A stretch of DNA of 32,000 bases from Synechococcus sp. A15-24 (GCF_014280195.1 NZ_CP047960.1:120001-152000); one strand, 5' to 3'; numbered from the stretch's first letter, positions 170 through 25,338 are shown. Made by a program: numbers and translations. The notes: generated by a model not told the origin, from the sequence alone.

Positions 170-199
170 TTGACTATATGTTTTGCTTTGGGTTATACT
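170..199 (+). promoter_or_regulatory. Candidate sigma70-type promoter for the repeat-protein gene
   Basis: TTGACT (170-175), 18-nt spacer, TATACT (194-199), in the AT-rich spacer after the upstream stop. It would give a leader of about 240 nt before ATG 445. Confidence 0.3.
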
Positions 200-444: not shown

Positions 445-3400
445 ATGGCCTTTAACAGCACCATCACAGGATCGAGCACTGGGGATACCCTGCTCGGAAC
501 CGATTCAGACCAGTACATCGCTGGCGGATCTTCCGCCGATAGTATTTCTGTATCAATTGGATACACAGGCGTTTCAGTTCAAGCTGCTGCCGGAGACGAC
601 ACCATCCGTGCTCTCGGAGCTACCTCCACACTCAAAGGTGGCAGCGGTGCTGACAGCATCTACCTGACATCAGCGCTCGACAGTTCCAATATTGCGTCTA
701 ACACTGGTAACGACTCGATTCAGCTATTCGCTACCGCTTCCAGTTCCAAAATTTGGCTGGGCTCTGGTGCTGACTCCCTCCGCGTCGCAGCCAAAGGAAC
801 TGATCTCACGATCAAGGCAGGTACTGAGGCAGATACCATTTCATTTGCCCTAGATCAAACTTCCATCTATCTGGACGGAGAAGCAGGGGACGACATTGTT
901 CACTTCGCTGAAGGCCTGACTACTGGAACCCTTTTGGGCGGCAGTGGAGCCGACAGTCTTTATCTGGATGATCCGTCCACAAACGTCAGCTTGGGCGGTG
1001 GTGATGACGATGAAGCCGATACTTTCCATCTTGCTGACACAGCCACTTCTGTCAGCATTTCTGCGGGCAGTGGCGCCGATAGCATTTTGCTTGCAGGTGG
1101 CGTCGCAGGATCTGGTCAGGTTTTAACCGGCGCTGGCAACGATACGGTTCAGGTCACAGGCACCCTGATCTCTACTTCGCTCACTGGAAATGATGGCGAT
1201 GATTTCGTCAGCATCAGCGGAAAGGCGAATTCCAGCACCCTGAAAGGTAATTCAGGTGCTGACACCATCATTATCAGCAGTGGTGGTACCGCCACGAACA
1301 TTGCCACCAACATTGGCGATGACTCGATCTCTATTGGCTCCAAGCTGACCGGGTCCAAGATCTGGGGCGGAAGCGGCTCCGACACCATCACCATTGCAAC
1401 ACTGAGTTCTGGTGTTGTTGGTGGTCAGCAAGGCGCCGACCTTGTTGTTGCTTCAAAAATTGTTTCTTCAAATGTTCAGCTCGCTGTTTCGGATGAAGGC
1501 AGTTCACTCAAAGACACTCTTTCCGTTTCTGGATTAGTTAGTAATTCCACCATTCTTTCCAGCGATGGTGACGATTCTATTAGTCTTGGAACCCTTGCCG
1601 GTGGTACCACCACCCTTCTCGATGGAGGAGATACTCTGATTGTTGGCAGCAGCCTTGGTGGCGTTATCAACATGGGTGACGGTGCTGATTTGGTTAGTGC
1701 GGCAGGTTCCGTCAGTGCTGGCACATTGATGGGCGGTAGCGGAGCTGACAGTTTCACCTTGGGTGGCGCAGCCGCAACTTCAAGTGTTGTTGGTGGTTTT
1801 GGTGCTGACACCATCCAAATTGATGGTTCTGTTAAGTCAGCGACTATCCGTGGCGGTGATGCTGCAACACCAGGTAGTGAGCTTGATGGAAACGACACAA
1901 TCACTATTAGTGGTTCCGTTTCTGCTTCCAAGATCATCACTAACGTTGGTGCCGATTCTCTGGTAATCAACTCAGCGGCTATTAATTCCACAATGTTTGG
2001 TGGAAGCGGAGATGACTCCATCAGTATCGGTTCCAACCTTTCGAAAGGTGTCCTTTACGGAAATGCCGGCGCTGACTCTCTGCTAGTCAACACCAGCTTG
2101 GCTGGTGGTGCCTCCATCATCGGTGGTTCTGCTTCTGATGATGAGGATGCAGATTCGATCTCTGTCGGCAGTATCAATTCAGGATTTATTGCTGGCGAAG
2201 GTTCCAACGACACGATTGTTGTTAACGCAGCCGCTAAGAGTGCAACCATTAAAGGTGGTAGCGGAGCTGATTCCCTTACCCTGAATGGTGCTAACACTGC
2301 CGGCAAGATTTACGGAAACGCTGGCGACGACTCCTTTAGCATCGTTGGAGTAGTAACGAGCTCCACGGTCTCTGGTGGTGACGACGACGATTCCATTGTC
2401 TTCGACAGCGCCCTTACAAAGTCCAATGTGGGCGGTGATGATGGCGATGACTTGATGTCTGTCGCTGGAACTATCACTGCAAGTTCGCTGTACGGCGGCT
2501 CCGGTGATGACAGCTTCACTTTGGGTGCGATTACTGCTGGTACTTCTGTCCTTGGTGAGGCTGGCGCAGATTCGTTCTCCATCGTCAGTGCGCTGACTTC
2601 CTCTGTTGTTGGTGGCAGCGGTAATGATTCCATCATTATTGGTGGATCTGCCTACAAGTCCTTCCTTGATTCAGGAGATGACAAGGACTTGATCAGCTTT
2701 GGCGGAACATTCACCAGTTCAACAATTTCTGCAGGTTCCGGTAACGACACCATCTCCATCGCTGCTGGTGCAGGCGGCAAGGTCACGATTAATGCTGGCG
2801 CTGGCAACGACAGCCTCGTGATCGCAAGTGGTATTTCTGGTTCGACCATCCAAGGCGCTGGCGGCAACGATCACTTCAGCATTAGTGGTGGTGTTACATC
2901 TGACAGCTTGATGGGTGGCGCTGGTAACGACAGCTTCAACTTCACCGGCTCGCAGATTTCTGCTTCCACTATCAACGTTGGTCTTGGTAAAGACTCAATC
3001 CTTGGCAGTGGTTTAGGTGACAGCTTCACCCTCACCGCTACCTCTCTGAGCGGATCAACTCAGACTGCAATTTCTTTATCGGCAACAACCTTAATAGGCG
3101 GTGCTGGGGCAGATTACATTAACGTTGCCCAGATCATTACTGCTGGTCTATTCAGTGGTGATGCTGGAGCTGACTCGATCTACTTCGCTAAGTCTGTTGT
3201 TAACACAACAGTGAGTGGCTCAAATGCTTCTGATACAGTCAGCTTGAGCGGTGCTGCAGATGATTTGGTCTTAGCGACCTTCACATCAGGCAATGTCTTC
3301 TCTGCTAGCGGTGCAGATACCATCCGCTTCAAGGGAACGGCCACCGGCGGCACAGTTGACCTTGGTGTTGGGAGTGACAGCGTTTCCATCGGTGGGGTCC

Positions 3401-4899
3401 TCAACTCGACTCAAATCAGCACGGATGCAGGCGAAGATTCGATCCACTTCGCTAGCGGTGGTACAAGCGTTTCAATCTTCGCTGGCTCCGGTAACGACGT
3501 CATAACGTTCGGTTCCGACGCAATTAGCAGCTCTGATTCCTTGCTCGGTGGTGTTGGTAACGACTCCTTCGACTTCGACAACAACGTCACCGTTTCCACC
3601 ATGCAGGGTGGTTCGGGTAATGACACCTTCGTGTTTGCTCAAACCGTTACAGGCGCGTATGTCTCAGGTGATGCTGATAAGGATTCCATCGTCTTCACCG
3701 AAGTCGTTAACGGTGGCACTTCAGTTATGGGTGGTGCTGGTAAGGACACCATCAGCTTTGCTAACGGCGCTACCAGCATCTCGATTGCTGGTGGAAGCGG
3801 TGCAGATAAGTTGACCTTCTCTGGAGCAGCTGTTGCTGGTTCCACGGTTGACCTTGGTTCCGATTCTGATGTCTTCACCCTTTCCGTTGGTGCGAGCGGT
3901 ACCACGATCATGGGTGGTGCCAACAACGACACTCTGGTGTTTAGCGGTGACCTGACAGCAAGCAGCGTGCTTGGTGGTGATGGAAATGACTCCATCTCGA
4001 TTTCTTCTGAAGTCACTTCCGGCAACTCCATCGCCGGTGGATCTGGTGCTGACACGATCTTGTTCAGCGCTGGTGTAAGTCAGGCTGCTGTCTCTGGTGA
4101 TGCTGGAGCTGACAGCATCTCGTTTGGTGGCATTGTTTCCAACACCACAGTGGTTGGTGCCTCTGATGCAGACACCATCATCTTCAGCTCTAACGCTGAC
4201 CTCGTCTCTTACGACGGCGGTTTCGGTACAGGATCTATCGTCGGCGGCTCTGGTGCTGACACACTCGTCTTCATCAACGCAGGTGATCTGAGCGGTGGCA
4301 CTATCCGAGGTGGTGCAGGCGCTGATTCCTTAGTCTTTGCTGGCAACCTTGTCTCTGGTGTGTTCGGTGGTGATGCAGGTAACGACTTCTTCACGGGATC
4401 GATCTCCGTGGGTACCAGTGGCGTCAGCTTCTGGGGTGGAACAGGAAATGATTCCTTCAACTTCACTGATCTAACAGCCGGTACCTCCTCTACTGCCTAC
4501 TTCTGGAATGAGGCTGGTACCGATTCTGTCCATTTTGCTGACGGAATCAGCTTCGGTTACGACAACTTGGGAGCGAGTCAGCATGGTGGCATTGTATTCG
4601 GTATCGATACTGATGCTGCTAACAACATCAGTTTCGGCTCAGGTCAAGGTACTGCCCTCTTTGGAACTGCCGATGGTTCCTCTGGCTTCTTTATTGGAGC
4701 CAGCGGCAACACACTGGTCAGCTACGGCTTTGGCACTGCAACAGGGGTTACGATCGTCTTTGCCGGTGGCGCTCAAGCGACCCTTGCAGGTGGTGATTTC
4801 TCTTCTGCAAGTGCGACTGGTATCTTCTCCAACGCTTCTGGTGCTGGAGCTGGTACGGGTAACTTCGGTTCTGCTACTGCAATTCCGACCTTCAGCTGA
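445..4899 (+). CDS. Giant secreted RTX-like / beta-roll repeat protein; probable T1SS substrate and cell-surface (S-layer/SwmA-like) glycoprotein
   Basis: Single uninterrupted 1484-codon ORF. The product is Gly/Ser/Ala/Thr/Asp-rich, with no Cys and only 3 Pro seen. About 65 tandem degenerate units each carry G-x-G-[AND]-D-[ST]-[ILFV] (GGSGADSIYL, GNAGDDSFSI, GSGNDTISI ...), resembling hemolysin-type Ca-binding turns. The non-repeat Gly/Phe-rich C-terminal 117 aa fits an uncleaved T1SS signal. No N-terminal signal peptide. A dedicated terminator follows. ABC/HlyD genes lie 8 kb downstream. Confidence 0.93.
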   Translation: MAFNSTITGSSTGDTLLGTDSDQYIAGGSSADSISVSIGYTGVSVQAAAGDDTIRALGATSTLKGGSGADSIYLTSALDSSNIASNTGNDSIQLFATASSSKIWLGSGADSLRVAAKGTDLTIKAGTEADTISFALDQTSIYLDGEAGDDIVHFAEGLTTGTLLGGSGADSLYLDDPSTNVSLGGGDDDEADTFHLADTATSVSISAGSGADSILLAGGVAGSGQVLTGAGNDTVQVTGTLISTSLTGNDGDDFVSISGKANSSTLKGNSGADTIIISSGGTATNIATNIGDDSISIGSKLTGSKIWGGSGSDTITIATLSSGVVGGQQGADLVVASKIVSSNVQLAVSDEGSSLKDTLSVSGLVSNSTILSSDGDDSISLGTLAGGTTTLLDGGDTLIVGSSLGGVINMGDGADLVSAAGSVSAGTLMGGSGADSFTLGGAAATSSVVGGFGADTIQIDGSVKSATIRGGDAATPGSELDGNDTITISGSVSASKIITNVGADSLVINSAAINSTMFGGSGDDSISIGSNLSKGVLYGNAGADSLLVNTSLAGGASIIGGSASDDEDADSISVGSINSGFIAGEGSNDTIVVNAAAKSATIKGGSGADSLTLNGANTAGKIYGNAGDDSFSIVGVVTSSTVSGGDDDDSIVFDSALTKSNVGGDDGDDLMSVAGTITASSLYGGSGDDSFTLGAITAGTSVLGEAGADSFSIVSALTSSVVGGSGNDSIIIGGSAYKSFLDSGDDKDLISFGGTFTSSTISAGSGNDTISIAAGAGGKVTINAGAGNDSLVIASGISGSTIQGAGGNDHFSISGGVTSDSLMGGAGNDSFNFTGSQISASTINVGLGKDSILGSGLGDSFTLTATSLSGSTQTAISLSATTLIGGAGADYINVAQIITAGLFSGDAGADSIYFAKSVVNTTVSGSNASDTVSLSGAADDLVLATFTSGNVFSASGADTIRFKGTATGGTVDLGVGSDSVSIGGVLNSTQISTDAGEDSIHFASGGTSVSIFAGSGNDVITFGSDAISSSDSLLGGVGNDSFDFDNNVTVSTMQGGSGNDTFVFAQTVTGAYVSGDADKDSIVFTEVVNGGTSVMGGAGKDTISFANGATSISIAGGSGADKLTFSGAAVAGSTVDLGSDSDVFTLSVGASGTTIMGGANNDTLVFSGDLTASSVLGGDGNDSISISSEVTSGNSIAGGSGADTILFSAGVSQAAVSGDAGADSISFGGIVSNTTVVGASDADTIIFSSNADLVSYDGGFGTGSIVGGSGADTLVFINAGDLSGGTIRGGAGADSLVFAGNLVSGVFGGDAGNDFFTGSISVGTSGVSFWGGTGNDSFNFTDLTAGTSSTAYFWNEAGTDSVHFADGISFGYDNLGASQHGGIVFGIDTDAANNISFGSGQGTALFGTADGSSGFFIGASGNTLVSYGFGTATGVTIVFAGGAQATLAGGDFSSASATGIFSNASGAGAGTGNFGSATAIPTFS
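478..4545 (+). repeat. In-frame tandem array of about 65 degenerate ~57-63-nt (19-21-aa) coding repeats
   Basis: Hand parsing of the translation from GDTLLG (aa 13) to GTDSVHFADG (aa 1367). One G-x-D-[ST]-hydrophobic core recurs every ~20 aa, with a few longer units. The units are diverged at the DNA level. Confidence 0.85.
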
Positions 4900-4920
4900 T
4901 CACTTATCGATTCGTTCTCA

Positions 4921-4946
4921 CCTCCCCTTCGGGGGAGGTTTTTTTT
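4921..4946 (+). terminator. Rho-independent terminator after the repeat-protein gene
   Basis: CCTCCCC (4921-4927) / TTCG loop / GGGGAGG (4932-4938), followed by T8 (4939-4946), 22 nt after the TGA at 4897-4899. Confidence 0.8.
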
Positions 4947-4971
4947 GTTTTGCGATATTTTGTATTGCAGC

Positions 4972-6963
4972 ATGGCCAATTTCATTCAACTTTCGAACTG
5001 GGTCACCTCCTTCTATAAAGGCGACCGTCTCTCTTCTGAAACGCAGCTCCAGGCTGCGGCTTACCTCAATTCTGAGCTTGATATCTCCTCAGAGTTGGCT
5101 GTGATCAGGCGTTCTCAAGGGCGTGACAATTCCACCTCTCCTCTTAGTTCTCCTCATTACGCTTCAGGTTCTCTTACGTTGGTCGGATCTCAATCGCTTT
5201 ACCAGCAAAGGGGAATTAGCAAAAATAGTCGTTACGAATTAGTTTTGCAGTTTCCAGAAATTGTCGATGCGATACTTCTTTATGGGCTTATAGATGTTCT
5301 TTCTTATGACACAATATGGCATGATCAAAAGTCATCGTTTTATCGTTTGGGTGAGTTGCTCGACCGTCAATTTAATGATCGACCAGATATCGTTCTTCAA
5401 TTGGTTCAGAATAAGAATGCCTTTTCGATTTTAAAAACTTTGCCATACCAAAGGATTGAATCCTCGGCCTATTATCGGAATACAGCTTGCTCTATCTATT
5501 TCTTGCATAGTCTATGGGCAAAGGGGTGTTTTGAATTAATTGTTCGCAATTATGCTAGTTATGCCTTTAATCGTCGTAGTTTTCCAAAAAGTGACTTTAT
5601 GCTTCGTTGCTTCACAAATTTAGGGCTTGACAGTCGAGTTAGTGCTTTATTTCGTGATGTTTATCATCGTTACCATAAAGAGCTACAGCTTCAGTCAATC
5701 AGTAACATGCTTTTTGTTGAGCACGGAATGGAAAAATTAGACCAGCATCGTATCTCAATTCTTGTAAAGGACTATCATAATTTGTCGCGGTTGGAAATTG
5801 CAGACCATGCTGATGTTGATCCGCCGAGTAAAATTCAGAACGCCAATCGTATGATTTCAATTCACGAGAAAAAGACGATAGCGGTTGTCTCGGCAGATCT
5901 CCGTAATCATCCTGTTGGTAGATTCTGGCTGCCAATTGTTAGTGCACTTTATCGTGATTATAATATTGTTTACGTAGCTCTTAATTCAGACCCCAACGTT
6001 GTCGATCAAACGCGTTCTCGTCTTAAATCATTGTCGACGCAGTGGTGTGATTTGTATTCCGGTGAGAATCCGTTACCGGTCCTTCGTTCGCTGGCGCCGG
6101 ATGTCCTGATTGATTTAGGTGGTCATACTGCTGACAATCAACCTGGCCTCCTGAATTTTCGTATTGCCCCTTTGCAGATCACATATCTTGGTTTTTATGG
6201 ACCCAGCTATGGCAATGAATGCGACTGGTGGGTGCTTGACCGTGAAATTGCTAGCCGTGTCGGGTCGTCCTATCACGGAGCTGAATCAATCTGGGCTTTG
6301 CCCTGTCCAAGTCTCTGTTTCGATCCTGATGTCCATGGTGTTCCTTCACCGGATAAAATTTACTACACGAATTCGTCTTCTCCTGTTTTTGGGTCATTTA
6401 ATCATACGCGTAAGTTGACGCAACAGTGTCTATCTAGATTTCATTCCGTTTTAGGTGAGTTCCCCGATTCAAAACTTCTTTTTCGTGCGCATTCCTTTTT
6501 TGATCCGCAGATTCGTCGTTGGTTTTTGTCTAAACTTGTTCAGTCTGGTGTAGCGCCTTATAAATTGTTAGCAATACCCTACGCACCTACTCCTTTTGAA
6601 GGATACTGCGATTACGGGAGAATTCACGTACATTTTGATACCTTCCCTGTTTGTGGTACTACAACAACTCTTGATTCTTTAGCAATGGGCATTCCGGTTT
6701 TAACGTCTCCGAACCATCTGTACGCAGGTGCCATCTCGTCTGCAATCATTGAACATGCCGGTTTTACTGAGTGGATTGCTGAACATCCCGATGAACTTCC
6801 CCAGAAGGCTTCTGAACTTTTTGAGCGGTATCGAACAGCTGACTCGCGGCGAGCCTTAGCTAATCACATTCGTTCATCTTCCTTGTGTGACACCTTAAAT
6901 ACACCTCGAATCTTCTCCGAACAACTCATAGAAATGATGAAATGTTCAAACCTTAGAAGATAG
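4972..6963 (+). CDS. GT41-family glycosyltransferase (OGT/SPINDLY/HMW1C-like) without recognisable TPRs
   Basis: The track's TTG start at 4945 lies in the terminator T-tract, so the first ATG at 4972 (MANFIQ...) is preferred. The C-terminal ~340 aa aligns by eye with the catalytic half of ORF 8155-10467: DLGGHTADNQP/DLAGHTAGNRL, APLQITYLGFYG/APIQATYLGYYG, FGSFNHTRKLT/LGSFNQSRKIT, DTFPVCGTTTTLDSLAMGIPVLT/DTFPYTGCTTTADALWMGVPVLT. The N-terminal ~320 aa shows no TPR periodicity. Confidence 0.8.
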   Translation: MANFIQLSNWVTSFYKGDRLSSETQLQAAAYLNSELDISSELAVIRRSQGRDNSTSPLSSPHYASGSLTLVGSQSLYQQRGISKNSRYELVLQFPEIVDAILLYGLIDVLSYDTIWHDQKSSFYRLGELLDRQFNDRPDIVLQLVQNKNAFSILKTLPYQRIESSAYYRNTACSIYFLHSLWAKGCFELIVRNYASYAFNRRSFPKSDFMLRCFTNLGLDSRVSALFRDVYHRYHKELQLQSISNMLFVEHGMEKLDQHRISILVKDYHNLSRLEIADHADVDPPSKIQNANRMISIHEKKTIAVVSADLRNHPVGRFWLPIVSALYRDYNIVYVALNSDPNVVDQTRSRLKSLSTQWCDLYSGENPLPVLRSLAPDVLIDLGGHTADNQPGLLNFRIAPLQITYLGFYGPSYGNECDWWVLDREIASRVGSSYHGAESIWALPCPSLCFDPDVHGVPSPDKIYYTNSSSPVFGSFNHTRKLTQQCLSRFHSVLGEFPDSKLLFRAHSFFDPQIRRWFLSKLVQSGVAPYKLLAIPYAPTPFEGYCDYGRIHVHFDTFPVCGTTTTLDSLAMGIPVLTSPNHLYAGAISSAIIEHAGFTEWIAEHPDELPQKASELFERYRTADSRRALANHIRSSSLCDTLNTPRIFSEQLIEMMKCSNLRR

Positions 6964-8158
6964 CTGCAAGTGGCTTGAGTAGCTCCTCAAGTTTGTCAAT
7001 TGTGTTGCTCAACGCATAATGTTTTTGAATATATTCCTTTGAATTTTTACCCCATGCCCGAAGTTTTTTCGGCTGTTTCAGGAGTTTATGAATGGCCTCT
7101 CCAAGGCCTTTTTCATCCCCTTGATAAAGGGCTCCGGTGATTCCGGGTTTGATCAATTCTTTGATCATTGCATTGTTATTTCCGATCACGGGTGTTCCAC
7201 ATGCCATGATTTCGATCAGGCTCCAGCTCAGCACGAACGCGCTCGAAAGGTAGACATGTAAGTCACTTCTCAAATACAACTTGATCAGCTGTTCATGGGG
7301 TATTCGAGGGAAGAAATGTATACGTGTCAGATCTATTTGTCCTTCAAGCTCATGCAATAAGATGTCTTTCCAGCTTCTCCCATCATCTGATGCACTAGAA
7401 TAACTGACTCCATCACCTCCAACAATGACGATGTGCACTCTTTTATTCAAGGCTTGTAGCCTAACTAAAGATCTCATGAACGTAGGGAAACCACGCATCG
7501 GCTCAAGATTTCTGCTGATGTAGGTCACAACAGGTGTATCTTCACCCAACGTTAATTCTGGTGTAAGTGTTAAGCGATTGATTCTTTGATTCTGAAACAT
7601 TGTCTCTTCTACTCCCTCATGTAATACGTTTATCTTATTCTGAAGTCTTTTGGGAAAACTATCGGCTTGAAATTGTGTTGGTAACATCGCGGTTTGCGCT
7701 TGGCTTAAAGACAATTCAACTAAACTATTTTTGTTTTGAAGATAATGCCATTGCTGTAGGGTCATTGATGCATCTGTTTGTCCTAATTGTGTAGGTCTAA
7801 GCCATAGTTCTGGCCAGAGAACTAGAGCACTGCTTGGATATATTCTTTTTAATAGTAAGGTCTCACCCCATCCTGGATGCCCCAAAATGATATCGGGAGC
7901 CCAGTCTTTCCCCTTGAGTAGATTAGCTTGTTCTGCAGCTAGCTCACTTCGATGAATCCATTCGTCGACTTCCTTTGTTAGTTGATGAATCCCGGAACAT
8001 TCCTTTTGTTTATACTCGTATCTATACGTTTCAATCTTGTCATAAATGGGTTTTCCGTGGCTGCAAATCGCTTTTACTTCGTGGCCTCTGTCCACCAGAG
8101 CTGGTGCAATATCACGAAATTGGCCTGGGAAATTTTGGTGTATACAGAGTATTTTCAC
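6953..8158 (-). CDS. GT4-family (Glycos_transf_1) glycosyltransferase
   Basis: 401-aa ORF. N-terminus MKILCIHQNFPGQF...; C-terminal block HVYLSSAFVLSWSLIEIMACGTPVIG...GITG is typical of the GT4 E-x7-E region. Its start overlaps the upstream stop by 4 nt (8155-8158). Confidence 0.85.
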   Translation of the reverse strand: MKILCIHQNFPGQFRDIAPALVDRGHEVKAICSHGKPIYDKIETYRYEYKQKECSGIHQLTKEVDEWIHRSELAAEQANLLKGKDWAPDIILGHPGWGETLLLKRIYPSSALVLWPELWLRPTQLGQTDASMTLQQWHYLQNKNSLVELSLSQAQTAMLPTQFQADSFPKRLQNKINVLHEGVEETMFQNQRINRLTLTPELTLGEDTPVVTYISRNLEPMRGFPTFMRSLVRLQALNKRVHIVIVGGDGVSYSSASDDGRSWKDILLHELEGQIDLTRIHFFPRIPHEQLIKLYLRSDLHVYLSSAFVLSWSLIEIMACGTPVIGNNNAMIKELIKPGITGALYQGDEKGLGEAIHKLLKQPKKLRAWGKNSKEYIQKHYALSNTIDKLEELLKPLAAIF

Positions 8159-10467
8159 TTGCTTTGTCTCTTTAGTGGTGAGAAACGTGCAACAGGCTCG
8201 ATATTGTGTCGAAGAGGCCAGGATGAAGCTTGACTACCTGTCAGCCGTGATAAACCTTCATTTTGTATGAGCTTTCGCCACCATATTCGAAATGTCTTTT
8301 CCAGTTCTTTAGCCATGTCGGCATGGTCCAGCAGTTGGCTCTTGCGCAGATCGCCACGTAAATGTTGTCGTGTCTGAGCTAGTTTTTCACTGTCCGACAG
8401 GAGTTCAACTGCCTTATTGCATAATTCATTTCGACTATTGCAGATCCACTCTGAATGCCCTGCGGCATTCAGAACGGCTGCCGCTTGGCGACTGACCATG
8501 GATTGTCCTGCAACCGTCAGTACAGGTACACCCATCCACAGCGCATCGGCAGTTGTTGTACATCCTGTATAAGGGAATGTATCCAATGCCAGATCTAGAT
8601 TTTTGTATTGCTCAAGATGGGCTTGCACGTTTGGGCTATGGCCATGAAGATGCAGACGTTCTGGAGCAAGTCCGAGTCGTTCAAACAACTTTTTGATTCT
8701 TTTAGCTTCTTGCTCTTCTCCAAGATTTTTAGACTTTAAATACAAATGAGCTGTAGGAATCATTTGAAGCACAGCCATCCAATTTTCGGCTGTTTCCTGG
8801 GTTATTTTACGACTCTGATTGAAGCTGCCTAACATTGCAGTCTGTTTTTTGGCCAATGGCAGTGGGCTTACATCTGGGGCCTCATCCAAAGGGCGATAGC
8901 TCATGTAGCCTCTATTAAGTTTCCAGATTGTTTCCGTGCTGTATTGATCAATCTTTTCATTTTCGGCATGCACGGTATCATCTGTTATCCAATAATCAAC
9001 TGTTTCCAGACCCGTTGTTCCGTAATAACCGAGATAGGTTGCTTGGATCGGGGCAGGCTTATGGGCTAGTACGGGAAGGCGGTTTCCTGCTGTGTGACCA
9101 GCAAGGTCAACAAGAATGTCAATTTCGTCTTGAATGATTTGTTGGATGACACTTTCATCGTCGGCAGATTGTATATCGCGCCAATGGTCTGCCTTACATT
9201 TTAATCTTTCACTATAGTCATCTCTTACCTCTCCAGCTGCGTATAAAGTGATTTCTAAATGTTGTCCTGACCATTGTTCAAGCAGCGGCTCGATAAAATA
9301 GCTGACGGCATGTCTGCAAAAATCGGGTGAAATTAATCCAATCTTCAATTTGCGATGTTGGTCTGGCCAGAGAACACGATCCCGCCAGCGCTCGTATGGT
9401 GCAGTACTGAACAACTGCCCATATTTTTTGGCCTCTTCGAACCGTTCTTTAGCTGGTTCAAGTTCATAGCCCACGAGTGTAAATAGTACATTGGAATGTG
9501 CAGCAGCATTCTCGCCCAGTTGTTTCGCACCTCTTCTGAGCCAATAGAGCGCATCTTGATAGCAGGTTATGTCCTTTAGTACGGATCCAAGGTTGTTCAT
9601 AGCAGCTCCAAATTCTGGTGATGACTTGAGTGCACGTTCAAAACAGTCCTTCGCTTTATGAATATGTCCATGTTCTCTCAACATTAGTCCAAGTGTATTA
9701 AGACAAATGGCATAGTCAGGATCTTGCTCCAATGCCTTTTGGAAGAAATCATAGGCTTTTTCTAAATCTCCTTTCCCTTTGCTGATTACGCCTAATGCGT
9801 ACAATAGATTCGGGTGTTCGTGATGGGTCTTCAGTAACGGGTGAAGTAGCTTTTCGGCTTTTAAATAATCTCGTTGTCCACAAAGTACTTGAGCGGTATT
9901 CAGTACCACGGCTAGATTATTGTCGTCATCTACGAGTTCTTGGCTTTTTGCCCAGTAGCATAGGGCATCTTCAACGTTTCCAACTTGTTGGCAGGCATTC
10001 CCAAGTTCAAGCAGTAGTTGAGATGCGTCCTTCTCGTTGCCAGAAGTCGGAAATGTTTCAAGAAAACTACCTATCTTTTCAATTACAACTTCATGTTCAT
10101 GCATTGCATTCAACGTTATGGCAAGCCCGAGGTGAGGACCACTCATCTCGGGCGCAAGGCTCACCGCTTTTTCAAAGGCCGTGCGCGATTCAGTTAAATG
10201 GCCTAGGTCTCTAAGCACGTTTCCCAAATTTCCTTGGAGCCCGGGGTCGTCTGGCTTTAGTTCCACAGCTTTTCTCTGGAAGACCAAGCCCTCTTCTGGT
10301 CGTCCTAGCTGCCTGAGTAAGGCCCCTAGATTCCGATAGCCATCAACAAGGCCTTGATCTGCCTCGACTGCCTGTCGGTAAAGCTGTTCAGCCTTGTCAA
10401 GCTGCTGTTGCTGGTGCCAGTAGCACGCCTGATTAAACAGCTCCTGACCTTGTGCGTGTCCCTCCAT
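8155..10467 (-). CDS. TPR-repeat + GT41 (O-GlcNAc-transferase/SPINDLY-like) protein glycosyltransferase
   Basis: 770-aa ORF. The N-terminal ~330 aa contains multiple TPRs (AEQLYRQAVEADQGLVDGYRNLGALL..., ALEQDPDYAICLNTLGLML...). The C-terminal GT41 blocks are ISPDFCRHAVS, DLAGHTAGNRL, IQATYLGYYGTTG, GSFNQSRKIT, DTFPYTGCTTTADALWMGVPVLT. Confidence 0.88.
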   Translation of the reverse strand: MEGHAQGQELFNQACYWHQQQQLDKAEQLYRQAVEADQGLVDGYRNLGALLRQLGRPEEGLVFQRKAVELKPDDPGLQGNLGNVLRDLGHLTESRTAFEKAVSLAPEMSGPHLGLAITLNAMHEHEVVIEKIGSFLETFPTSGNEKDASQLLLELGNACQQVGNVEDALCYWAKSQELVDDDNNLAVVLNTAQVLCGQRDYLKAEKLLHPLLKTHHEHPNLLYALGVISKGKGDLEKAYDFFQKALEQDPDYAICLNTLGLMLREHGHIHKAKDCFERALKSSPEFGAAMNNLGSVLKDITCYQDALYWLRRGAKQLGENAAAHSNVLFTLVGYELEPAKERFEEAKKYGQLFSTAPYERWRDRVLWPDQHRKLKIGLISPDFCRHAVSYFIEPLLEQWSGQHLEITLYAAGEVRDDYSERLKCKADHWRDIQSADDESVIQQIIQDEIDILVDLAGHTAGNRLPVLAHKPAPIQATYLGYYGTTGLETVDYWITDDTVHAENEKIDQYSTETIWKLNRGYMSYRPLDEAPDVSPLPLAKKQTAMLGSFNQSRKITQETAENWMAVLQMIPTAHLYLKSKNLGEEQEAKRIKKLFERLGLAPERLHLHGHSPNVQAHLEQYKNLDLALDTFPYTGCTTTADALWMGVPVLTVAGQSMVSRQAAAVLNAAGHSEWICNSRNELCNKAVELLSDSEKLAQTRQHLRGDLRKSQLLDHADMAKELEKTFRIWWRKLIQNEGLSRLTGSQASSWPLRHNIEPVARFSPLKRQSK

Positions 10468-10515: not shown

Positions 10516-12204
10516 ATGGTCGCGAACACAGCTCCTGGGCGAGCGTTGGAACTGTTTCACGCTGGTGAACCGCTGCAGGCCATTGAAGCTGCGCAGGAGC
10601 TTTTAACGGCCTCTTCATTGGATAATGACCAAGCTGCCGAGATGCATCACCTTATCGGTGCATGTTTTCACCAGCTTGGTCAGAACGATGATGCATTGAA
10701 ATACCTGCTTTTGGCGTCCAGACTTAATCCTTTAAATCCCACGTATTATAATACCTATGGTGTTGTTCTTCGTAAGTCCGGTCGTCTTGAAGCTGCTGTA
10801 CGCTCCTACGAGTTTGCTTTAAAATATGAACACAACTTTGCTGATTGTTTTTACAACCGTGGTAATGCCTTAGCAGAACTTAAGCGCAAGGATGAAGCTG
10901 CCCTCGAGTTTAAACAGTGTCTCCGCTTGAATCCAACCCACAATAATGCCCACCATAATCTCGCAAATATATATCGTGATCAGAACCATATCGATTTAGC
11001 CCTCGATCATTATAGGATTTCGAATGAATGTCAGCCCTACAACCCCGATATGCATTGCAATTGGGGGCTTGCTTTGCAGCTTAAAGAGCAATGGGGGGAC
11101 GCGATTGATCAGTTTGAAATAGCGATTAACCAAAAGAGCGACCATGCGCCGTCCTACGTCAATCTTGGCAGTGCACTCTCAGTCCAGGAGCGTTTCGACG
11201 AAGCATGTTCTGCGTTACGCAAGGGTGTTGAAATTGATGATTCTTGTCATGATGCAAAGTTTAATCTTGGACTAACACTTCTTACAATTGGCCAGATGGA
11301 TGAAGGTTGGAAGTTTTACGAAACACGCCTCCATCTTCCTGATAAGGTAATCACTCCTTTCCCGGGTATTCCGGTTTGGGATGGCTCAGTTAATCTGGAT
11401 AGTCCACTAATGGTGTGGGCTGAACAGGGCTATGGCGATAATATTCAATTTGTGAGGTATATACCAATATTAATGGAGATGGGGCTTGACGTTGTTTTGT
11501 CAACGCGAAAACCTTTGATGTCTTTATTTAGAGAGTGTTTATCTCCCTCGGCTCCTCCAATTGTTGAACATCGACGTCAGGATCTTAATGGTTTTCATCA
11601 TCATATTCCATTGCTGAGCCTTCCGCGTGTTCTTGGTACTCGTCTCGATACTGTTCCATTGATGCCTGGCTATCTAAAACGTCCGGAACGGATCCCTGAT
11701 CATTTGCAAATATCTCGACCCCCATTTGCCTTAAATATCGGTCTTGTCTGGGCTTCTGGCGTTGATAACAAGGAGATGTATGCAGACAAGAGCTTGCGAC
11801 TGGAGCTTTTGTTGCCTCTATTCGATCGTTGGCGTAAGGAGCGCTTGGTCTGTATTCATTCTCTGCAAGTTGGTCAAGATGCCTCACAGCTCGCACCTTG
11901 GAAGGACGAATGGGGCGTTTACGATTGGAATGATAAGCTTTCGTCATTCTTAGACACCGCCTGTGTCATTTCCCAACTGGACCTTGTTGTTTCTGTCGAT
12001 ACCGCAGTAGCGCATGTTGCTGGTGCGCTTGATAAACCAGTTTGGGTATTACTCCAACATAATGCTGATTTCCGCTGGATGCGCGGTCGTACTGACTCTC
12101 CTTGGTATAGTTCGATGAGTCTTTTCCGCCAGAAATCACTTGGTGATTGGTCATCGGCCCTTGAGAGTTTACAAGAACGTCTTGTTCATCTTCTTGGCCC
12201 ATGA
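10516..12204 (+). CDS. TPR-repeat + GT9-like (heptosyltransferase-fold) glycosyltransferase; first gene of the T1SS operon
   Basis: 562-aa ORF. N-terminal TPRs (YYNTYGVVLRKSGRLEAAVRSYEFALKYEHNFADCFYNRGNAL...). C-terminal GT9-like blocks WAEQGYGDNIQFVRYIP and LVVSVDTAVAHVAGALDKPVWVLL. Its stop overlaps the next start (ATGA at 12201-12204). Confidence 0.8.
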   Translation: MVANTAPGRALELFHAGEPLQAIEAAQELLTASSLDNDQAAEMHHLIGACFHQLGQNDDALKYLLLASRLNPLNPTYYNTYGVVLRKSGRLEAAVRSYEFALKYEHNFADCFYNRGNALAELKRKDEAALEFKQCLRLNPTHNNAHHNLANIYRDQNHIDLALDHYRISNECQPYNPDMHCNWGLALQLKEQWGDAIDQFEIAINQKSDHAPSYVNLGSALSVQERFDEACSALRKGVEIDDSCHDAKFNLGLTLLTIGQMDEGWKFYETRLHLPDKVITPFPGIPVWDGSVNLDSPLMVWAEQGYGDNIQFVRYIPILMEMGLDVVLSTRKPLMSLFRECLSPSAPPIVEHRRQDLNGFHHHIPLLSLPRVLGTRLDTVPLMPGYLKRPERIPDHLQISRPPFALNIGLVWASGVDNKEMYADKSLRLELLLPLFDRWRKERLVCIHSLQVGQDASQLAPWKDEWGVYDWNDKLSSFLDTACVISQLDLVVSVDTAVAHVAGALDKPVWVLLQHNADFRWMRGRTDSPWYSSMSLFRQKSLGDWSSALESLQERLVHLLGP

Positions 12205-12893
12205 ATGATTTTCCGTTCGATGACCGTACTTGGCATTTACTTGTCCGTTCTAGTAGAACTCGTATATTAATCGAGTCATGGATTGAGGAGCAAATCTGCA
12301 AGAGTGTTTCGCTTGAAAAAGATGTTGAAAGTTCTCTCGTTGCCTCTTTCGCATCTTCTAAGTGGATGGACGAGGCTGATGATGTCTCATATGCTGCAAC
12401 CCGTATGGCTCGGCTTCAGCGCTTTAAGCGCTCCCGTTTCCTTCCCAAGGTCGAAGAGTATTTCACGCGTACACGCTCAGCTAGAGATCAATTAATCTTT
12501 TCAATGCTCCGTTGTCGCAATTCCTCTCGTCTTCAAGAATTAGCTCTAGCGATTCGAGAAGGTGAATTAGAGCTTTCGGCAGCTGCGATCCGTTGGTCAG
12601 AGGGTCCAGAAAGTGCCCGTGGTGGCAGAATCGGTCCTGTTTTGGCATCGAATGTTGGCCATCCTGAGTTAACGAAGCGCTTACTCGTGGCCGTTGAGGG
12701 CCGTTTAATCGGCCCGTTTGATCTTGGCGACACAAATGTTCTTATTCGACTTGACAAAAGGCTTCCAGCTCGGCTAACCCATGACATGGAAGGCCAATTG
12801 ATCGACGAACTTTATCAGGAGTGGATCAGTGCTCAAATTGGCCTAGTTGAAGAGGGTGGGACAATAGACCTGATTGAGTACCTTCCAGATTGA
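12201..12893 (+). CDS. Parvulin/PpiC-like (rotamase-domain) protein, probably catalytically degenerate; T1SS accessory candidate
   Basis: 230-aa ORF with no signal peptide. The C-terminal half resembles a PpiC rotamase domain (AAIRWSEGPESARGGRIGPVLASNVGHPELTKRL...GRLIGPFDLGDTNVLIRLDKR). By eye, the two conserved parvulin His positions are not His. It is translationally coupled on both sides (ATGA at 12201, TTGA at 12890). Confidence 0.6.
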   Translation: MNDFPFDDRTWHLLVRSSRTRILIESWIEEQICKSVSLEKDVESSLVASFASSKWMDEADDVSYAATRMARLQRFKRSRFLPKVEEYFTRTRSARDQLIFSMLRCRNSSRLQELALAIREGELELSAAAIRWSEGPESARGGRIGPVLASNVGHPELTKRLLVAVEGRLIGPFDLGDTNVLIRLDKRLPARLTHDMEGQLIDELYQEWISAQIGLVEEGGTIDLIEYLPD

Positions 12894-15800: not shown

Positions 15801-15901
15801 ATAGCGGCCTTCTTCAGGAAACTGGCTCTCATGCTGAGCTTCTAAAGAAACGAGGCTTGTATTATGCCCTTTATCGCCAGCAAGATGCCTCCGTCAACTG
15901 A
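12890..15901 (+). CDS. Type I secretion ABC exporter with N-terminal cNMP-binding domain and a degenerate C39-like domain
   Basis: 1003-aa ORF with a TTG start. cNMP-binding cassette: VVEGSLRVF...PGEWWGG...CRTSA (G82-E83, R100-T101). C39-like segment: TPVEQGLALLQMV, with Gln (codon 13796-13798) where the catalytic Cys sits. Six-TM ABC_membrane region. Walker A GQSGSGKST (15275-15301), signature LSGGQRQRVAIAR, Walker B LLILDEATSALD. Confidence 0.93.
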   Translation: MTSSLSSIVRLLMEHPPLDHFAADLIQADEQQVSALFVPLGDSLAQEQVPLSSVVLVVEGSLRVFGRDASGQEFTLRRVLPGEWWGGVSVLNGLAAAGCRTSADSKILVVPAVVWERWWRDDRRLGEWLSKHSQREDLYSALRSLLVQRELQDLSLAELLDKLQPIYLFSEVLNLDDLNRLVERHPQMSWFPQFPELCFPDLGPPSFRGFNVSQLRDALDNSSRGLRLVGIPVAQLQTLFEAPKKPRPADKLADAVLVEQPVWQNPDGSELLTLAMQQDQGPVTLNRKALQVKPVFGSTPVEQGLALLQMVCEVLQLPFRRDVVDRMLNGMVGDRTSPSLENLGQIADALGLTAVMMQVPASHLNRVSLPALVETVDGVLLLAGDSGYCLRLIDPREGERLISATELQDQQPTYRLITLSRRVDSATKRFDISYFFPFLRRYKSSLILVFVASIFINIFGLAQPLIIQQIIDKVIGQQNFSTLYFLGVMLIGVSILSNVLNLIRTFLFTDTTNRIDIATSGNILTHLFRLPLNYFDKRPVGEISTRVGELGNIRGFLTGTALTLILDVIFGFVYLFVCISYSGLLTAVALGVVPLYLALVYIIAPVIKKQLRIAAEANAAASALMVEALNGMQTVKAQHAETTIRWRWQQRYARFVSSNFRTTIIGSTAGSIGAFFNEVGGLAVLWVGAYLVLQGDLTIGQLIAFRIISGNVVGPVIRLAQTWQTVQGLQISVERLADVVDAEPEQPLDARPIALPPINGKIEFDQVDFRFNEHAPLVVKQVSFTIEPGQFIGIVGQSGSGKSTIMKLLPRMYKAASGTIRIDDYDISKVDIDSLRQQIGIVPQDSMLFDGTIRENIALNSPDSTDEDIIYAAKVACAHAFIMDLPNGYDSRVGERGSALSGGQRQRVAIARSILARPRLLILDEATSALDYLTERTVCENLRRELKNDTVFFITHRLGTIRNADNILLMDSGLLQETGSHAELLKKRGLYYALYRQQDASVN

Positions 15902-19135: not shown

Positions 19136-19141
19136 GATTGT

Positions 19142-20017: not shown

Positions 20018-20055
20018 TTTACTTCTACACCCATCGCCAGCCTGTTAGGCATCAG

Positions 20056-22947: not shown

Positions 22948-22948
22948 A

Positions 22949-24070: not shown

Positions 24071-24086
24071 ATTTTCTAGGATGCTT

Positions 24087-25256: not shown

Positions 25257-25338
25257 GGCTCTATCCCACCTTCTTCTGGTACGGGTTTAGGGGACTTGTG
25301 CCACTCATTAGAATTTAGCCCTAACCCTGCGCGGCTTC

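What the first reader, a model, noticed from the sequence alone, without database searches (positions are those of the whole stretch)
445..4899. 'Half-RTX' solenoid: about 65 units of ~20 aa with one Ca-binding-like turn per unit, no Cys and almost no Pro
Seen:
- Instead of tandem GGxGxDxUx nonapeptides, only one G-x-G-x-D-[ST]-[ILF] turn recurs every 19-21 aa. The other half of each unit is a Ser/Thr/Gly-rich strand (for example ...TSSTVSGG, ...SASKIITNV).
- A few units carry insertions (acidic DDDE/SDDED loops, and a ~40-aa unit near aa 905).
- No Cys, 3 Pro, and a 117-aa non-repeat Gly/Phe-rich C-terminus.
- The DNA units are diverged, so the array should be recombinationally stable.

Established: RTX beta-rolls use 18 aa (two nonapeptides) per turn. 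AIDA-I-type beta-helices use ~19-aa units.

Inference: a one-sided Ca-binding beta-solenoid. At about 4.8 A per unit it would be a rod of about 30 nm, suited to an S-layer or spicule-like surface structure.
Basis: partly seen in the sequence, partly recalled or inferred. Interest (0 to 1): 0.75.

Follow-up and report, generated by a model that had tools for sequence, protein, structure and literature searches.

The report
One-sided calcium beta-roll surface rod
This gene encodes a 1484-residue secreted protein of a picocyanobacterium, made almost entirely of about 60 twenty-residue coils with one calcium-binding turn each; the fold is already known from an Antarctic bacterial ice-binding adhesin, and here it sits in a conserved cluster with its own export pump and protein-glycosylating enzymes, so it is probably a sugar-coated cell-surface rod.

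Summary
ORF 445-4899 (+) encodes a 1484-aa, 141.8-kDa protein with pI 4.05, no Cys and 3 Pro. It has a very strong 20-residue period (z about 14) and one G-x-G-x-D turn per unit.

The "half-RTX" fold is real but not new. The only solved structure matched by sequence is 3P4G, region IV of the Marinomonas ice-binding adhesin (E 5e-8). That is the published one-sided Ca2+ beta-roll with 19 residues per turn. An AlphaFold model built on true homologues (pLDDT 86.7; 92-97 in the coils) shows the same alternation of 4- and 3-residue strands. This protein is a 20-residue variant with one extra residue in the non-Ca loop, and it is about five times longer.

The gene heads a conserved picocyanobacterial cluster: substrate, two GT41 (OGT/SPINDLY-like) protein glycosyltransferases, further soluble glycosyltransferases, a PpiC-like protein, a HlyB-type ABC exporter with a cNMP-binding domain, and a HlyD adaptor. 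Family members have conserved ends (C-terminus ...NFG-A--IPTFS) and variable length (557-1731 aa). They routinely break metagenome assemblies.

Most likely it is a type I-secreted, Ca2+-folded, glycosylated surface fibril or S-layer-like protein. Calcium dependence, glycosylation and localisation are inferred, not shown.

The parts
170..199 (+). Promoter-like site (TTGACT-18-TATACT), about 245 nt upstream of the start codon; candidate only
   Evidence: 10 of 12 matches, but the number of such sites in the region is no higher than in shuffles. The upstream DNA is not conserved with L032 or L006.
445..4899 (+). Gene for the 1484-aa repeat protein (141.8 kDa, pI 4.05, net charge about -118)
   Evidence: The start is supported by the conserved N-terminus MA(T)FNSTI-GS-TGDTLLGT-SDQ in L032 and L033.
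445..519 (+). Conserved N-terminal 25 residues; no signal peptide and no hydrophobic segment
   Evidence: conservation; maximum 19-residue hydropathy 1.26, no TM-like peak.
517..4530 (+). About 60-65 coils of 20 residues (aa 25-1362). Each parses as [x-G-x-G-x-D] Ca-type turn, [X-U-X-U] strand, 7-residue Gly/Ser/Thr loop, [X-U-X] strand
   Evidence: period and consensus; 3P4G E 5e-8 over aa 665-852; model pLDDT 92-97 with strands on XUXU and XUX.
4399..4896 (+). Family-specific C-terminal module (aa 1319-1484): GVSFWGG-GND-F-F, TAYFWNEAGTDS, then about 110 residues of longer strands. Probable C-cap of the roll plus the secretion signal
   Evidence: invariant T, F, W, N and D in TAYFWNE-G-D. 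64 cluster representatives match (31 at E<=1e-10); modelled at pLDDT about 57-95; no PDB relative by sequence.
4852..4896 (+). Extreme C-terminus GTGNFGSATAIPTFS; motif (T)(A/G)NFG-A--[IMFL]P[TS]FS-COOH, conserved across the family. Candidate type I secretion signal
   Evidence: P at 90% or more; the final F invariant in A1 and at 90% or more in A2.
4920..4949 (+). Intrinsic terminator-like hairpin (8-bp stem, 6 G-C pairs) plus T-run, 21 nt after the stop codon
4972..6963 (+). GT41-family glycosyltransferase without TPR, always the next gene after the repeat gene. The listed TTG start at 4945 overlaps the terminator, so the ATG at 4972 is more likely
   Evidence: SPINDLY catalytic domain E 3e-32; bacterial OGT homologue 5DJS E 5e-26; synteny in L001, L002, L032, L034-L037, L006; soluble.
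6953..8158 (-). GT4 glycosyltransferase, conserved in the cluster
8155..10467 (-). TPR + GT41 protein glycosyltransferase (OGT/SPINDLY-like)
   Evidence: SPINDLY E 1.4e-93, human OGT E 4e-70, XcOGT E 1e-34; synteny.
10516..12204 (+). TPR protein with a weak GT9 (heptosyltransferase-family) C-terminal domain
12201..12893 (+). 230-aa protein, weakly PpiC/parvulin-like, always directly upstream of the ABC gene, also in Prochlorococcus
   Evidence: TIGR04500, E 4e-5; Rotamase 17.9 bits, below cut-off; synteny L001-L014.
12890..15901 (+). Type I secretion ABC exporter: N-terminal cNMP-binding domain, C39-like domain without the catalytic Cys, six-helix membrane domain, ATPase
   Evidence: cNMP_binding, ABC_membrane, ABC_tran; TIGR01846 HlyB type, 672.6 bits, cut-off 725.6; C39 18 bits; 'VEQGLALL' where active C39 peptidases have Cys-Gly.
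15864..17189 (+). HlyD-family periplasmic adaptor with one N-terminal TM segment
   Evidence: (TIGR01843, 160 bits, cut-off 208.7).
17186..26472 (.). Eight further genes: seven soluble glycosyltransferases (DXD-type, four GT4, two GT9-like) and one unknown. No polysaccharide flippase, polymerase or ABC exporter

Best explanation
The gene encodes the substrate of the type I secretion system that lies 8 kb downstream.

Export and folding. In the low-calcium cytoplasm the polypeptide stays unfolded. It is recognised through its C-terminal module (ending ...NFG-A--IPTFS) by the HlyB-type ABC exporter and HlyD adaptor, and is threaded out C-terminus first. Outside the cell the C-terminal module folds as a cap. 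The 20-residue units then stack one by one into a two-sheet beta-roll. Each x-G-x-G-x-D turn shares a Ca2+ ion with the turn of the next coil. All ions therefore sit along one edge, as in region IV of the Marinomonas ice-binding adhesin. The opposite edge is a 7-residue Gly/Ser/Thr loop that lacks the Asp.

Product. The result is an acidic rod of about 60 coils (up to about 30 nm if uninterrupted), with flat faces covered in Ser and Thr.

Glycosylation and role. The two soluble OGT-like GT41 enzymes and the other soluble glycosyltransferases of the cluster probably glycosylate these Ser/Thr residues in the cytoplasm before export. The mature product would be a glycosylated cell-surface fibril or S-layer-like coat protein of the picocyanobacterium. 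Its length differs between strains.

Shown: the repeat anatomy, the homology and fold match, and the conserved gene cluster. Inferred: calcium binding, secretion by this pump, glycosylation, and surface location.
For: Repeat anatomy.

Fold:
- 3P4G is the only significant PDB sequence match (E 5e-8).
- 3P4G and the CyaA RTX domain are the top fold matches.
- The family profile matches only CyaA RTX in the PDB.
- The AlphaFold model from 36 family sequences has pLDDT 86.7 and pTM 0.86. Its 4-residue strands lie on XUXU after each Asp and its 3-residue strands on XUX before each turn. That is the geometry described for MpIBP region IV (PMC6891781; PMC3492233).

Secretion:
- No signal peptide or TM segment; pI 4.05.
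- The ABC exporter matches the HlyB type best (672.6 bits) and the adaptor matches HlyD.
- The C39-like domain lacks the catalytic Cys.
- The gene order substrate, GT41, GT4, TPR-GT41, TPR-GT9, PpiC-like, ABC, MFP recurs in L001, L002, L006, L007, L032 and L034-L037.
- The C-terminus is conserved across 64 cluster representatives.
- Vectorial Ca-driven folding and C-caps are established for RTX proteins (PMC6891781).

Glycosylation:
- TPR-GT41 matches SPINDLY at E 1.4e-93 and OGT at E 4e-70. The adjacent GT41 matches SPINDLY at E 3e-32.
- All glycosyltransferases are soluble, and the window has no polysaccharide export genes.
- The protein is 26% Ser+Thr.
- Across loci, the adjacent GT41 is the most divergent of the conserved neighbours (39-52% identity, against 45-71% for the others). 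The repeat protein itself is only 32-35% identical in the two full-length relatives.
- The cyanobacterial RTX surface proteins SwmA and oscillin are reported as glycosylated (PMC3034196).

Surface fibril: both ends are conserved while the length varies (557, 1182, 1484 and 1731 aa). The gene has its own strong terminator.
Against: - No experiment bears on any step.
- The ABC and adaptor scores fall just below NCBIfam's trusted cut-offs.
- No outer-membrane TolC-like gene is in the window.
- Glycosylation of a type I substrate before export has no well-established mechanistic precedent. A heavily glycosylated chain might not pass the channel.
- The glycosyltransferases could instead build a surface glycan. 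From my own knowledge, O-antigen genes flank the Caulobacter S-layer gene.
- Global superposition on 3P4G is poor (TM 0.3-0.48, rmsd 8-12 A). This is expected for long solenoids but is not a tight match.
- Irregular stretches (aa 335-379, 853-892, 933-945) were low-confidence in the single-sequence model.
- L033 carries a homologue without the same neighbours.
Confidence: 0.6

Rival explanations
1. The protein is secreted and folds as described, but the glycosyltransferase island is not aimed at it. The enzymes build a lipopolysaccharide O-antigen or another surface glycan, perhaps the one that anchors the protein, and the protein itself is unglycosylated.
For: The low-GC island of GT4, GT9 and GT6 genes looks like a typical surface-polysaccharide island. 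GT9 is the heptosyltransferase family of LPS core synthesis. From my own knowledge, O-antigen genes required for S-layer attachment flank the Caulobacter rsaA transport genes.
Against: The window has no priming transferase, flippase, polymerase or polysaccharide ABC exporter, and every glycosyltransferase is soluble. Two of the conserved neighbours belong to GT41, whose characterised members (OGT, SPINDLY, HMW1C-type enzymes) all act on proteins (own knowledge). The GT41 gene immediately after the substrate gene is conserved in position in every locus.
Confidence: 0.25
2. It is a released or loosely bound adhesin or aggregation factor that glues cells into microcolonies or to particles, rather than a structural coat.
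For: Many long T1SS beta-roll proteins are adhesins. One hit with the same 20-22-residue turn spacing is annotated as a retention-module protein, as in RTX adhesins (P0061). Freshwater picocyanobacteria form microcolonies (PMC8955281).
Against: There is no retention module, no Ig-like extender domains and no ligand-binding domain. The protein is nothing but roll plus cap. No LapG/LapD-type genes are in the window.
Confidence: 0.2
3. It is an ice-binding or antifreeze protein like its closest solved relative, useful under lake or sea ice.
For: The closest structure is an ice-binding domain. The closest ABC homologue (86% identity) is in a Synechococcaceae MAG named WB9_2_112, which I recall, unverified, as coming from under-ice Lake Baikal. 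The roll faces carry Ser/Thr ladders.
Against: The ice-binding array of MpIBP is the Thr and Asx of x-G-T-G-N-D. Here GTGND occurs once in about 60 coils, and those positions are mostly Ser/Ala and Ala/Asp/Asn. The closest C-terminal fragment (87% identity) is from a Tara Oceans station 9 surface sample, which I recall, unverified, as Mediterranean. Ser is a poor substitute for Thr in known ice-binding faces (own knowledge).
Confidence: 0.04
4. It is a canonical RTX toxin or bacteriocin, or simply a disordered low-complexity Gly/Ser/Asp protein without a defined fold.
For: Weak HemolysinCabind similarity; the composition is strongly biased.
Against: There is no hydrophobic pore-forming, acylation or enzymatic domain, and no acyltransferase gene. 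The strict 20-residue register places hydrophobic residues at positions 2, 6, 11 and 20. The alignment-based model is confident.
Confidence: 0.04

Closest known systems
Region IV of the Marinomonas primoryensis ice-binding adhesin MpIBP/MpAFP (PDB 3P4G)
   Same: Continuous beta-roll with one x-G-x-G-x-D Ca-type turn per coil, so the ions lie on one edge only. After the turn comes a 4-residue XUXU strand, and before it a 3-residue XUX strand. It is part of a type I-secreted protein. Sequence match E 5e-8, and it is among the top fold matches.
   Different: - Coils of 20 rather than 19 residues; the second loop has 7 residues rather than 6.
- About 60 coils rather than 12-13.
- The roll is essentially the whole protein, rather than 2% of a 1.5-MDa adhesin.
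- The Thr/Asn ice-binding array is absent.
- No retention module or Ig-like extender.
- Cyanobacterial host, with a glycosyltransferase-rich cluster.
Canonical RTX beta-roll proteins (HlyA, CyaA, alkaline protease, LipA)
   Same: GGxGxD Ca-type turn followed by a short strand with an inward hydrophobic residue. Acidic, with no signal peptide, a C-terminal cap and signal, and a HlyB/HlyD-type exporter nearby. Roll 2 of Serratia LipA also has Ca2+ on one edge only.
   Different: No tandem nonapeptides: only one of 52 turn spacings is 10 residues and none is 9. Pfam HemolysinCabind is below threshold. There is no passenger enzyme or toxin domain.
Cyanobacterial RTX surface proteins: SwmA (Synechococcus WH8102 S-layer), oscillin (Phormidium surface fibrils), Sll1951 (Synechocystis)
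   Same: Gly/Asp-repeat proteins of cyanobacterial cell surfaces. SwmA and oscillin are reported as glycosylated, and oscillin is a rod-shaped fibril protein made almost entirely of repeats (PMC3034196). SwmA lies in an island with a glycosyltransferase (PMC7522525).
   Different: None appeared among the 112 hits. swmA is reported as specific to marine clade III, whereas this family is in the S. lacustris/Cyanobium-type lineage.
Glycosylated autotransporter beta-helices AIDA-I and TibA with their heptosyltransferases (PDB 4Q1Q)
   Same: Solenoid of about 19-residue units whose Ser residues are glycosylated in the cytoplasm by a dedicated soluble enzyme encoded next to it (own knowledge). GT9-family genes are present in this cluster.
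   Different: Those use type V secretion (signal peptide plus beta-barrel), are three-sided helices and bind no Ca2+. The fold match is weak (rank 34, probability 0.13).
HetC of Nostoc PCC 7120 (for the exporter only)
   Same: ABC exporter with an N-terminal cNMP-binding domain followed by a C39-type domain. The HetC cNMP domain binds ppGpp in vitro and is required in vivo (PMC10986499).
   Different: HetC has an active C39 peptidase. Here the catalytic Cys position is Gln, and the best family match is the HlyB type.

Membership tests
Canonical RTX (Pfam PF00353 HemolysinCabind) | Tandem nonapeptides GGxGxDxUx scoring above the Pfam gathering threshold | tested here: not met
   13.2 bits against a cut-off of 23. 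Turn spacing is 19-22 residues, with only one spacing of 10.
Canonical RTX (Pfam PF00353 HemolysinCabind) | Substrate of a HlyB/HlyD-type type I secretion system, with a C-terminal uncleaved signal and no N-terminal signal peptide | tested here: inconclusive
   A HlyB-type ABC (672.6 bits, cut-off 725.6) and a HlyD adaptor (160 bits, cut-off 208.7) sit in a conserved cluster. The protein has no signal peptide and a conserved C-terminus. Actual secretion is not testable here.
One-sided (non-canonical) RTX beta-roll of the MpIBP region IV type | Repeat of 19-21 residues with a single x-G-x-G-x-D turn, then XUXU, a second loop without Asp, then XUX | tested here: met
   Unit consensus and register, compared with the published motif. 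The coil is 20 residues and the second loop has 7.
One-sided (non-canonical) RTX beta-roll of the MpIBP region IV type | Detectable sequence and fold similarity to 3P4G | tested here: met
   phmmer E 5e-8. Foldseek probability 0.96-1.00 with E 2e-3 to 7e-2 and TM 0.3-0.48.
One-sided (non-canonical) RTX beta-roll of the MpIBP region IV type | Ca2+-dependent folding with one ion per coil along one edge | not testable with these tools
   Asp is invariant in regular units, but no ions are modelled and no experiment is available.
One-sided (non-canonical) RTX beta-roll of the MpIBP region IV type | Ice-binding array of Thr and Asx in the Ca turn (functional subclass) | tested here: not met
   GTGND occurs once. 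Those positions are mostly Ser/Ala and Ala/Asp/Asn.
LapA/MpIBP-type RTX adhesins | N-terminal retention module and tandem Ig-like extender domains | tested here: not met
   Only 25 residues precede the first coil. No such domain is found in Pfam or NCBIfam.
AIDA-type autotransporter beta-helix | N-terminal signal peptide and C-terminal autotransporter beta-barrel | tested here: not met
   No PF03797 match and no hydrophobic N-terminus.
S-layer protein secreted by type I secretion (RsaA, SwmA type) | Forms a two-dimensional lattice as the outermost, abundant envelope protein | not testable with these tools
   There are only weak fold matches to RsaA (probability 0.28 or less). Length variation of 557-1731 aa between family members argues against a fixed lattice unit, but this is inference.
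S-layer protein secreted by type I secretion (RsaA, SwmA type) | Sequence similarity to SwmA or Sll1951 | not tested
NCBIfam NF046115, SMc04171 family calcium-binding repeat protein | Score above the equivalog cut-off | tested here: not met
   70 bits against a cut-off of 625.

The most novel reading that the evidence does not exclude
Picocyanobacteria have a dedicated 'glyco-type-I-secretion' pathway. A Ser/Thr-faced one-sided calcium beta-roll rod is decorated in the cytoplasm by a battery of soluble glycosyltransferases led by two OGT-like GT41 enzymes. It is then exported through a HlyB-type pump gated by a nucleotide-binding domain, and it forms the outermost glycoprotein coat. In freshwater lineages this coat would be the so far gene-less Ca2+-binding S-layer that templates calcite in lake whitings, and a main interface with phages and grazers. 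It would also show that type I secretion can carry pre-glycosylated chains.
Probability: 0.2. Interest if true: 0.7.

Novelty: new variant of a known kind. Interest (0 to 1): 0.45.

Why it matters
The fold itself is not a discovery. One-sided calcium beta-rolls have been known since the MpIBP region IV structure and are covered in reviews.

What is new is an unannotated protein family specific to picocyanobacteria. It is built almost entirely from a 20-residue version of that roll, at five times the known length. It is locked into a conserved cluster with protein-type glycosyltransferases and a nucleotide-sensing type I exporter. The core of that cluster (PpiC-like protein, ABC exporter, adaptor) reaches as far as Prochlorococcus.

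If the protein is the surface coat or fibril of these very abundant lake and coastal phototrophs, it would give three things:
- a molecular handle on cell-surface properties that matter for grazing, phage adsorption, aggregation and possibly calcite nucleation;
- a test case for glycosylation upstream of type I secretion;
- a reason why this layer has been overlooked, since the gene nearly always breaks short-read assemblies (all 64 family representatives are fragments).

Tried and rejected
- Exact look-ups of the repeat protein, SecA and the ABC exporter found nothing on record, so the source genome could not be named. The nearest relatives are Synechococcus lacustris, Synechococcus sp. UW140 and a Synechococcaceae MAG.
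- Rfam and tRNA scans of the window found nothing.
- The full-length homology search returned only hits of about 26% identity driven by the repeats. True relatives came from the metagenome scan and the C-terminal search.
- A double-glycine leader processed by a C39 peptidase was considered, because the N-terminus reads ...YIAGG. I rejected it: the position is not conserved (SAG and EAS in homologues), it is simply the first Ca-type turn, and the exporter's C39-like domain lacks the Cys.
- The ice-binding reading was rejected on the motif count.
- The retention-module adhesin and autotransporter readings were rejected for lack of their domains.
- DNA-level tandem repeats: none.
- Conservation of the upstream region: none.
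- The SwmA, SwmB and GL24 S-layer papers are not held, so cluster-by-cluster comparison with Synechococcus WH8102 rests on memory and was not used as evidence.

Full report
OBSERVATION

The ORF is at 445..4899 on the + strand and encodes 1484 residues. Its composition is extreme: Gly 265, Ser 243, Ala 162, Thr 144, Asp 136, with no Cys, 3 Pro and 5 Arg. The mass is 141.8 kDa, the pI is 4.05, the net charge is about -118, and Ser+Thr make up 26%.

Residue-identity autocorrelation over aa 1-1362 peaks at lag 20 (z = 13.9 against 200 shuffles), lag 40 (10.3) and lag 60 (5.3). Lag 9 reaches only z = 3.

A unit HMM gives the consensus S-[IFL]-x-G-x-[AVL]-T-S-S-T-[IVL]-x-G-G-S-G-A-D-S-[IFL]. Asp is invariant at position 18 and hydrophobic residues sit at positions 2, 6, 11 and 20. 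The HMM finds about 60 units between aa 25 and 1338.

The turn G-x-D-x-hydrophobic occurs 53 times. The spacings are almost all 19-22 residues, and only one is 10, so there are no tandem nonapeptides. Pfam's RTX model stays below threshold, at 13.2 against 23 bits.

The acidic insertions and two long irregular units (aa 335-379 and 853-892) are present. At the DNA level there is no tandem array, and the repeat families are only 60-80% identical.

FOLD

The only significant match among all solved structures is 3P4G, region IV of the Marinomonas primoryensis ice-binding adhesin (E 5e-8, aa 665-852 against residues 80-261).

The literature describes that domain as 12-13 repeats of 19-21 residues with consensus xGTGNDxuxuGGxuxGxux, folding as a Ca2+-bound solenoid (PMC3492233). 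[quoted passage not shown] It has 19 residues per turn, parsed XGTGND-XUXU-GGXUXG-XUX, with one sheet of 4-residue strands and one of 3-residue strands. Roll 2 of Serratia LipA is likewise one-sided (PMC6891781).

A single-sequence AlphaFold model of aa 501-1084 was only moderately confident (pLDDT 58). It was still regular, and its top four PDB matches were the 3P4G chains.

After true homologues were found, a model of aa 1104-1484 built on 36 family sequences reached pLDDT 86.7 and pTM 0.86, with 92-97 across the coils. Its best PDB matches are the CyaA RTX domain and 3P4G.

Mapping the model's strands onto the sequence gives a clear pattern. The four residues after each Asp (X-U-X-U) form the longer strand. 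The three residues before each G-G-x-G-x-D turn (X-U-X) form the shorter one. The unit therefore parses as [x-G-x-G-x-D]-[XUXU]-[7-residue loop]-[XUX] = 20 residues. This is the MpIBP arrangement with one extra residue in the loop that does not bind calcium. At the position equivalent to the Asp, the second loop has Ser, Gly or Ala.

The 'half-RTX' reading is thus correct, but it is a published kind of fold. The same spacing of one turn per 19-20 residues also appears in several unrelated giant proteins among the database hits. One has an autotransporter domain and one is annotated as a retention-module protein.

GENOMIC CONTEXT

Downstream of the gene, after a strong terminator-like hairpin at 4920-4939, the genes run as follows:
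- a GT41 glycosyltransferase, matching the SPINDLY catalytic domain at E 3e-32;
- a GT4;
- a TPR-GT41, matching SPINDLY at E 1.4e-93 and human OGT at E 4e-70;
- a TPR protein with a weak GT9 domain;
- a 230-aa weakly PpiC-like protein;
- a 1003-aa ABC exporter with an N-terminal cNMP-binding domain, a C39-like region that reads Gln-Gly where active peptidases have Cys-Gly, and a best match to the HlyB type I secretion family (672.6 bits, cut-off 725.6);
- a HlyD-family adaptor;
- eight more genes, seven of them glycosyltransferases;
- SecA;
- a GT6.

All the glycosyltransferases lack TM segments. The window contains no polysaccharide flippase, polymerase or exporter, so the type I system is the only export machinery in the island.

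FAMILY AND DISTRIBUTION

Relatives of the ABC exporter are found in Synechococcus sp. UW140 and S. lacustris (71% identity), a Synechococcaceae MAG (86%), Cyanobium, Vulcanococcus (44%) and Prochlorococcus (about 39-46%).

The loci of UW140 and S. lacustris are colinear with window 6.1-25.8 kb. Both contigs end exactly where the repeat gene should be.

A metagenome scan recovered two full-length homologues: L032 (1731 aa, 35% identity) and L033 (1182 aa, 32%). It also recovered C-terminal fragments at 49-63% identity.

In L032 and L034-L037 the repeat gene is followed by the same GT41, GT4 and TPR-GT41 genes. Where the contig continues, these are followed by TPR-GT9, the PpiC-like gene and the ABC gene. 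Vulcanococcus (L006) has the same order around a 557-aa homologue with a different C-terminus.

An exhaustive search with the last 188 residues found 64 cluster representatives, 31 of them at E<=1e-10. All are fragments of at most 646 aa, and most end at the same C-terminus. Those looked up are unnamed or 'hypothetical'. One fragment at 87% identity comes from a Tara Oceans surface sample.

Family members share three features:
- the N-terminus MA(T)FNSTI-GS-TGDTLLGT-SDQ;
- a junction GVSFWGG-GND-F-F ... TAYFWNE-G-DS, with invariant T, F, W, N and D;
- an extreme C-terminus (T)(A/G)NFG-A--[IMFL]P[TS]FS.

The C-terminal module has no relative among solved structures by sequence.

MECHANISM (inferred from the above and from established RTX biology)

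1. The protein has no signal peptide and is highly acidic. It would stay unfolded at cytoplasmic calcium levels.
2. Its conserved C-terminus is the likely signal for the HlyB-type exporter and adaptor encoded in the same conserved cluster.
3. As described for RTX proteins, the C-terminal cap would fold first outside the cell. Calcium-driven stacking of coils would then prevent back-sliding (PMC6891781).
4. The product would be a stiff two-sheet rod with calcium along one edge and Ser/Thr-rich faces. At about 4.8 A per coil, 60 coils give roughly 30 nm if the three or four irregular stretches do not kink it.
5. The two GT41 enzymes belong to a family whose characterised members act on proteins (own knowledge). 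They are soluble, and one is invariably the next gene. It is also the most divergent of the conserved neighbours (39-52% identity, against 45-71% for the others), and the repeat protein itself is only 32-35% identical in its two full-length relatives. I therefore think Ser/Thr glycosylation of this substrate before export is more likely than not.
6. The alternative is that the island makes an anchoring glycan. This is a serious rival, which I rate at 0.25.
7. Conserved ends with a variable number of coils (about 20 to 75) fit a surface fibril or spacer better than a fixed lattice unit. An S-layer-like coat is not excluded.

Reported cyanobacterial analogues are SwmA (a glycosylated S-layer protein), oscillin (a rod-shaped, glycosylated fibril protein made of repeats) and Sll1951 (PMC3034196). 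Some Synechococcus S-layers bind Ca2+ and template calcite, and freshwater Cyanobium makes rigid spinae (PMC8955281). The searched literature names no gene for either.

READINGS REJECTED

- Ice binding: the Thr/Asn array is missing, and GTGND occurs once.
- Retention-module adhesin and autotransporter: their domains are absent.
- Double-glycine leader and active C39 export.
- Toxin: there is no extra domain.
- Disorder: the model is confident.

NOVELTY AND SCORE

The fold is known. The protein is a new, unannotated, lineage-specific family that uses a 20-residue variant of that fold at unprecedented length. It is paired with OGT-like enzymes and a nucleotide-sensing type I exporter. I file it as a new variant of a known kind, with interest 0.45. 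It is not low, because the conserved cluster in very abundant phototrophs is uncharacterised and experimentally tractable.

LIMITS

- Calcium binding, secretion, glycosylation and localisation are all inferred.
- The SwmA, Sll1951 and oscillin sequences could not be compared.
- Model coordinates could not be inspected for handedness or rise per coil.

Noticed in passing
window 12890-13240 (N-terminus of the ABC exporter): The type I secretion ABC exporter carries an N-terminal cyclic-nucleotide-binding domain. HetC of Nostoc has the same layout, and its domain binds ppGpp in vitro. Export of the surface protein may be gated by a nucleotide signal.
   Followed up: partly
window 12201-12893; also L001-L014: A 230-aa protein, weakly PpiC/parvulin-like (Rotamase 17.9 bits; TIGR04500 E 4e-5), sits directly upstream of the ABC gene in every related locus, including Prochlorococcus. 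It may be an accessory factor of this secretion system.
   Followed up: partly
L001 position 1 and L002 position 1 (contig ends), corresponding to about window 4800: In two related MAGs the contig ends exactly at the repeat gene. All 64 representatives of the C-terminal family are fragments. The gene is systematically lost or truncated in short-read assemblies.
   Followed up: yes
window 26506-29310 against its flanks: SecA has G+C of about 0.56, while the glycosyltransferase genes on both sides have 0.37-0.48. A core gene is embedded in a low-GC glycosylation island. A GT6-family gene starts 3 nt after the secA stop.
   Followed up: no
L003 (CAYFMB010000077.1): A contig labelled as an uncultured Klebsiella MAG carries the picocyanobacterial TPR-GT9, PpiC-like, ABC and adaptor genes at 50-67% protein identity to the window. 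It is probably a mis-binned contig.
   Followed up: no
P0020 and P0061 (database hits): The same spacing of one Ca-type turn per about 20 residues occurs in a protein with an autotransporter beta-domain (P0020) and in a Campylobacter protein annotated by its source as retention-module-containing (P0061). The one-sided roll seems to be used by substrates of different secretion systems and is largely unannotated.
   Followed up: partly
window 1149-4466, minus strand: Several ORFs of 81-186 aa antisense to the repeat gene translate to Pro/Ser/Ala/Glu-rich strings. They are shadows of the biased coding strand, not genes.
   Followed up: no
L006 1218-2891 (Vulcanococcus MAG): A 557-aa homologue with about 15-20 coils sits in the same gene order, but it ends ...SSTITSLG instead of ...IPTFS. 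The substrate's C-terminus differs in this locus, where the exporter is also more distant (about 44-53% identity).
   Followed up: partly
L033 1-9154: A 1182-aa family member with the conserved N- and C-termini lies between two large genes that do not match any window protein. The contig G+C is 0.41. Not every copy sits next to the GT41 genes.
   Followed up: no
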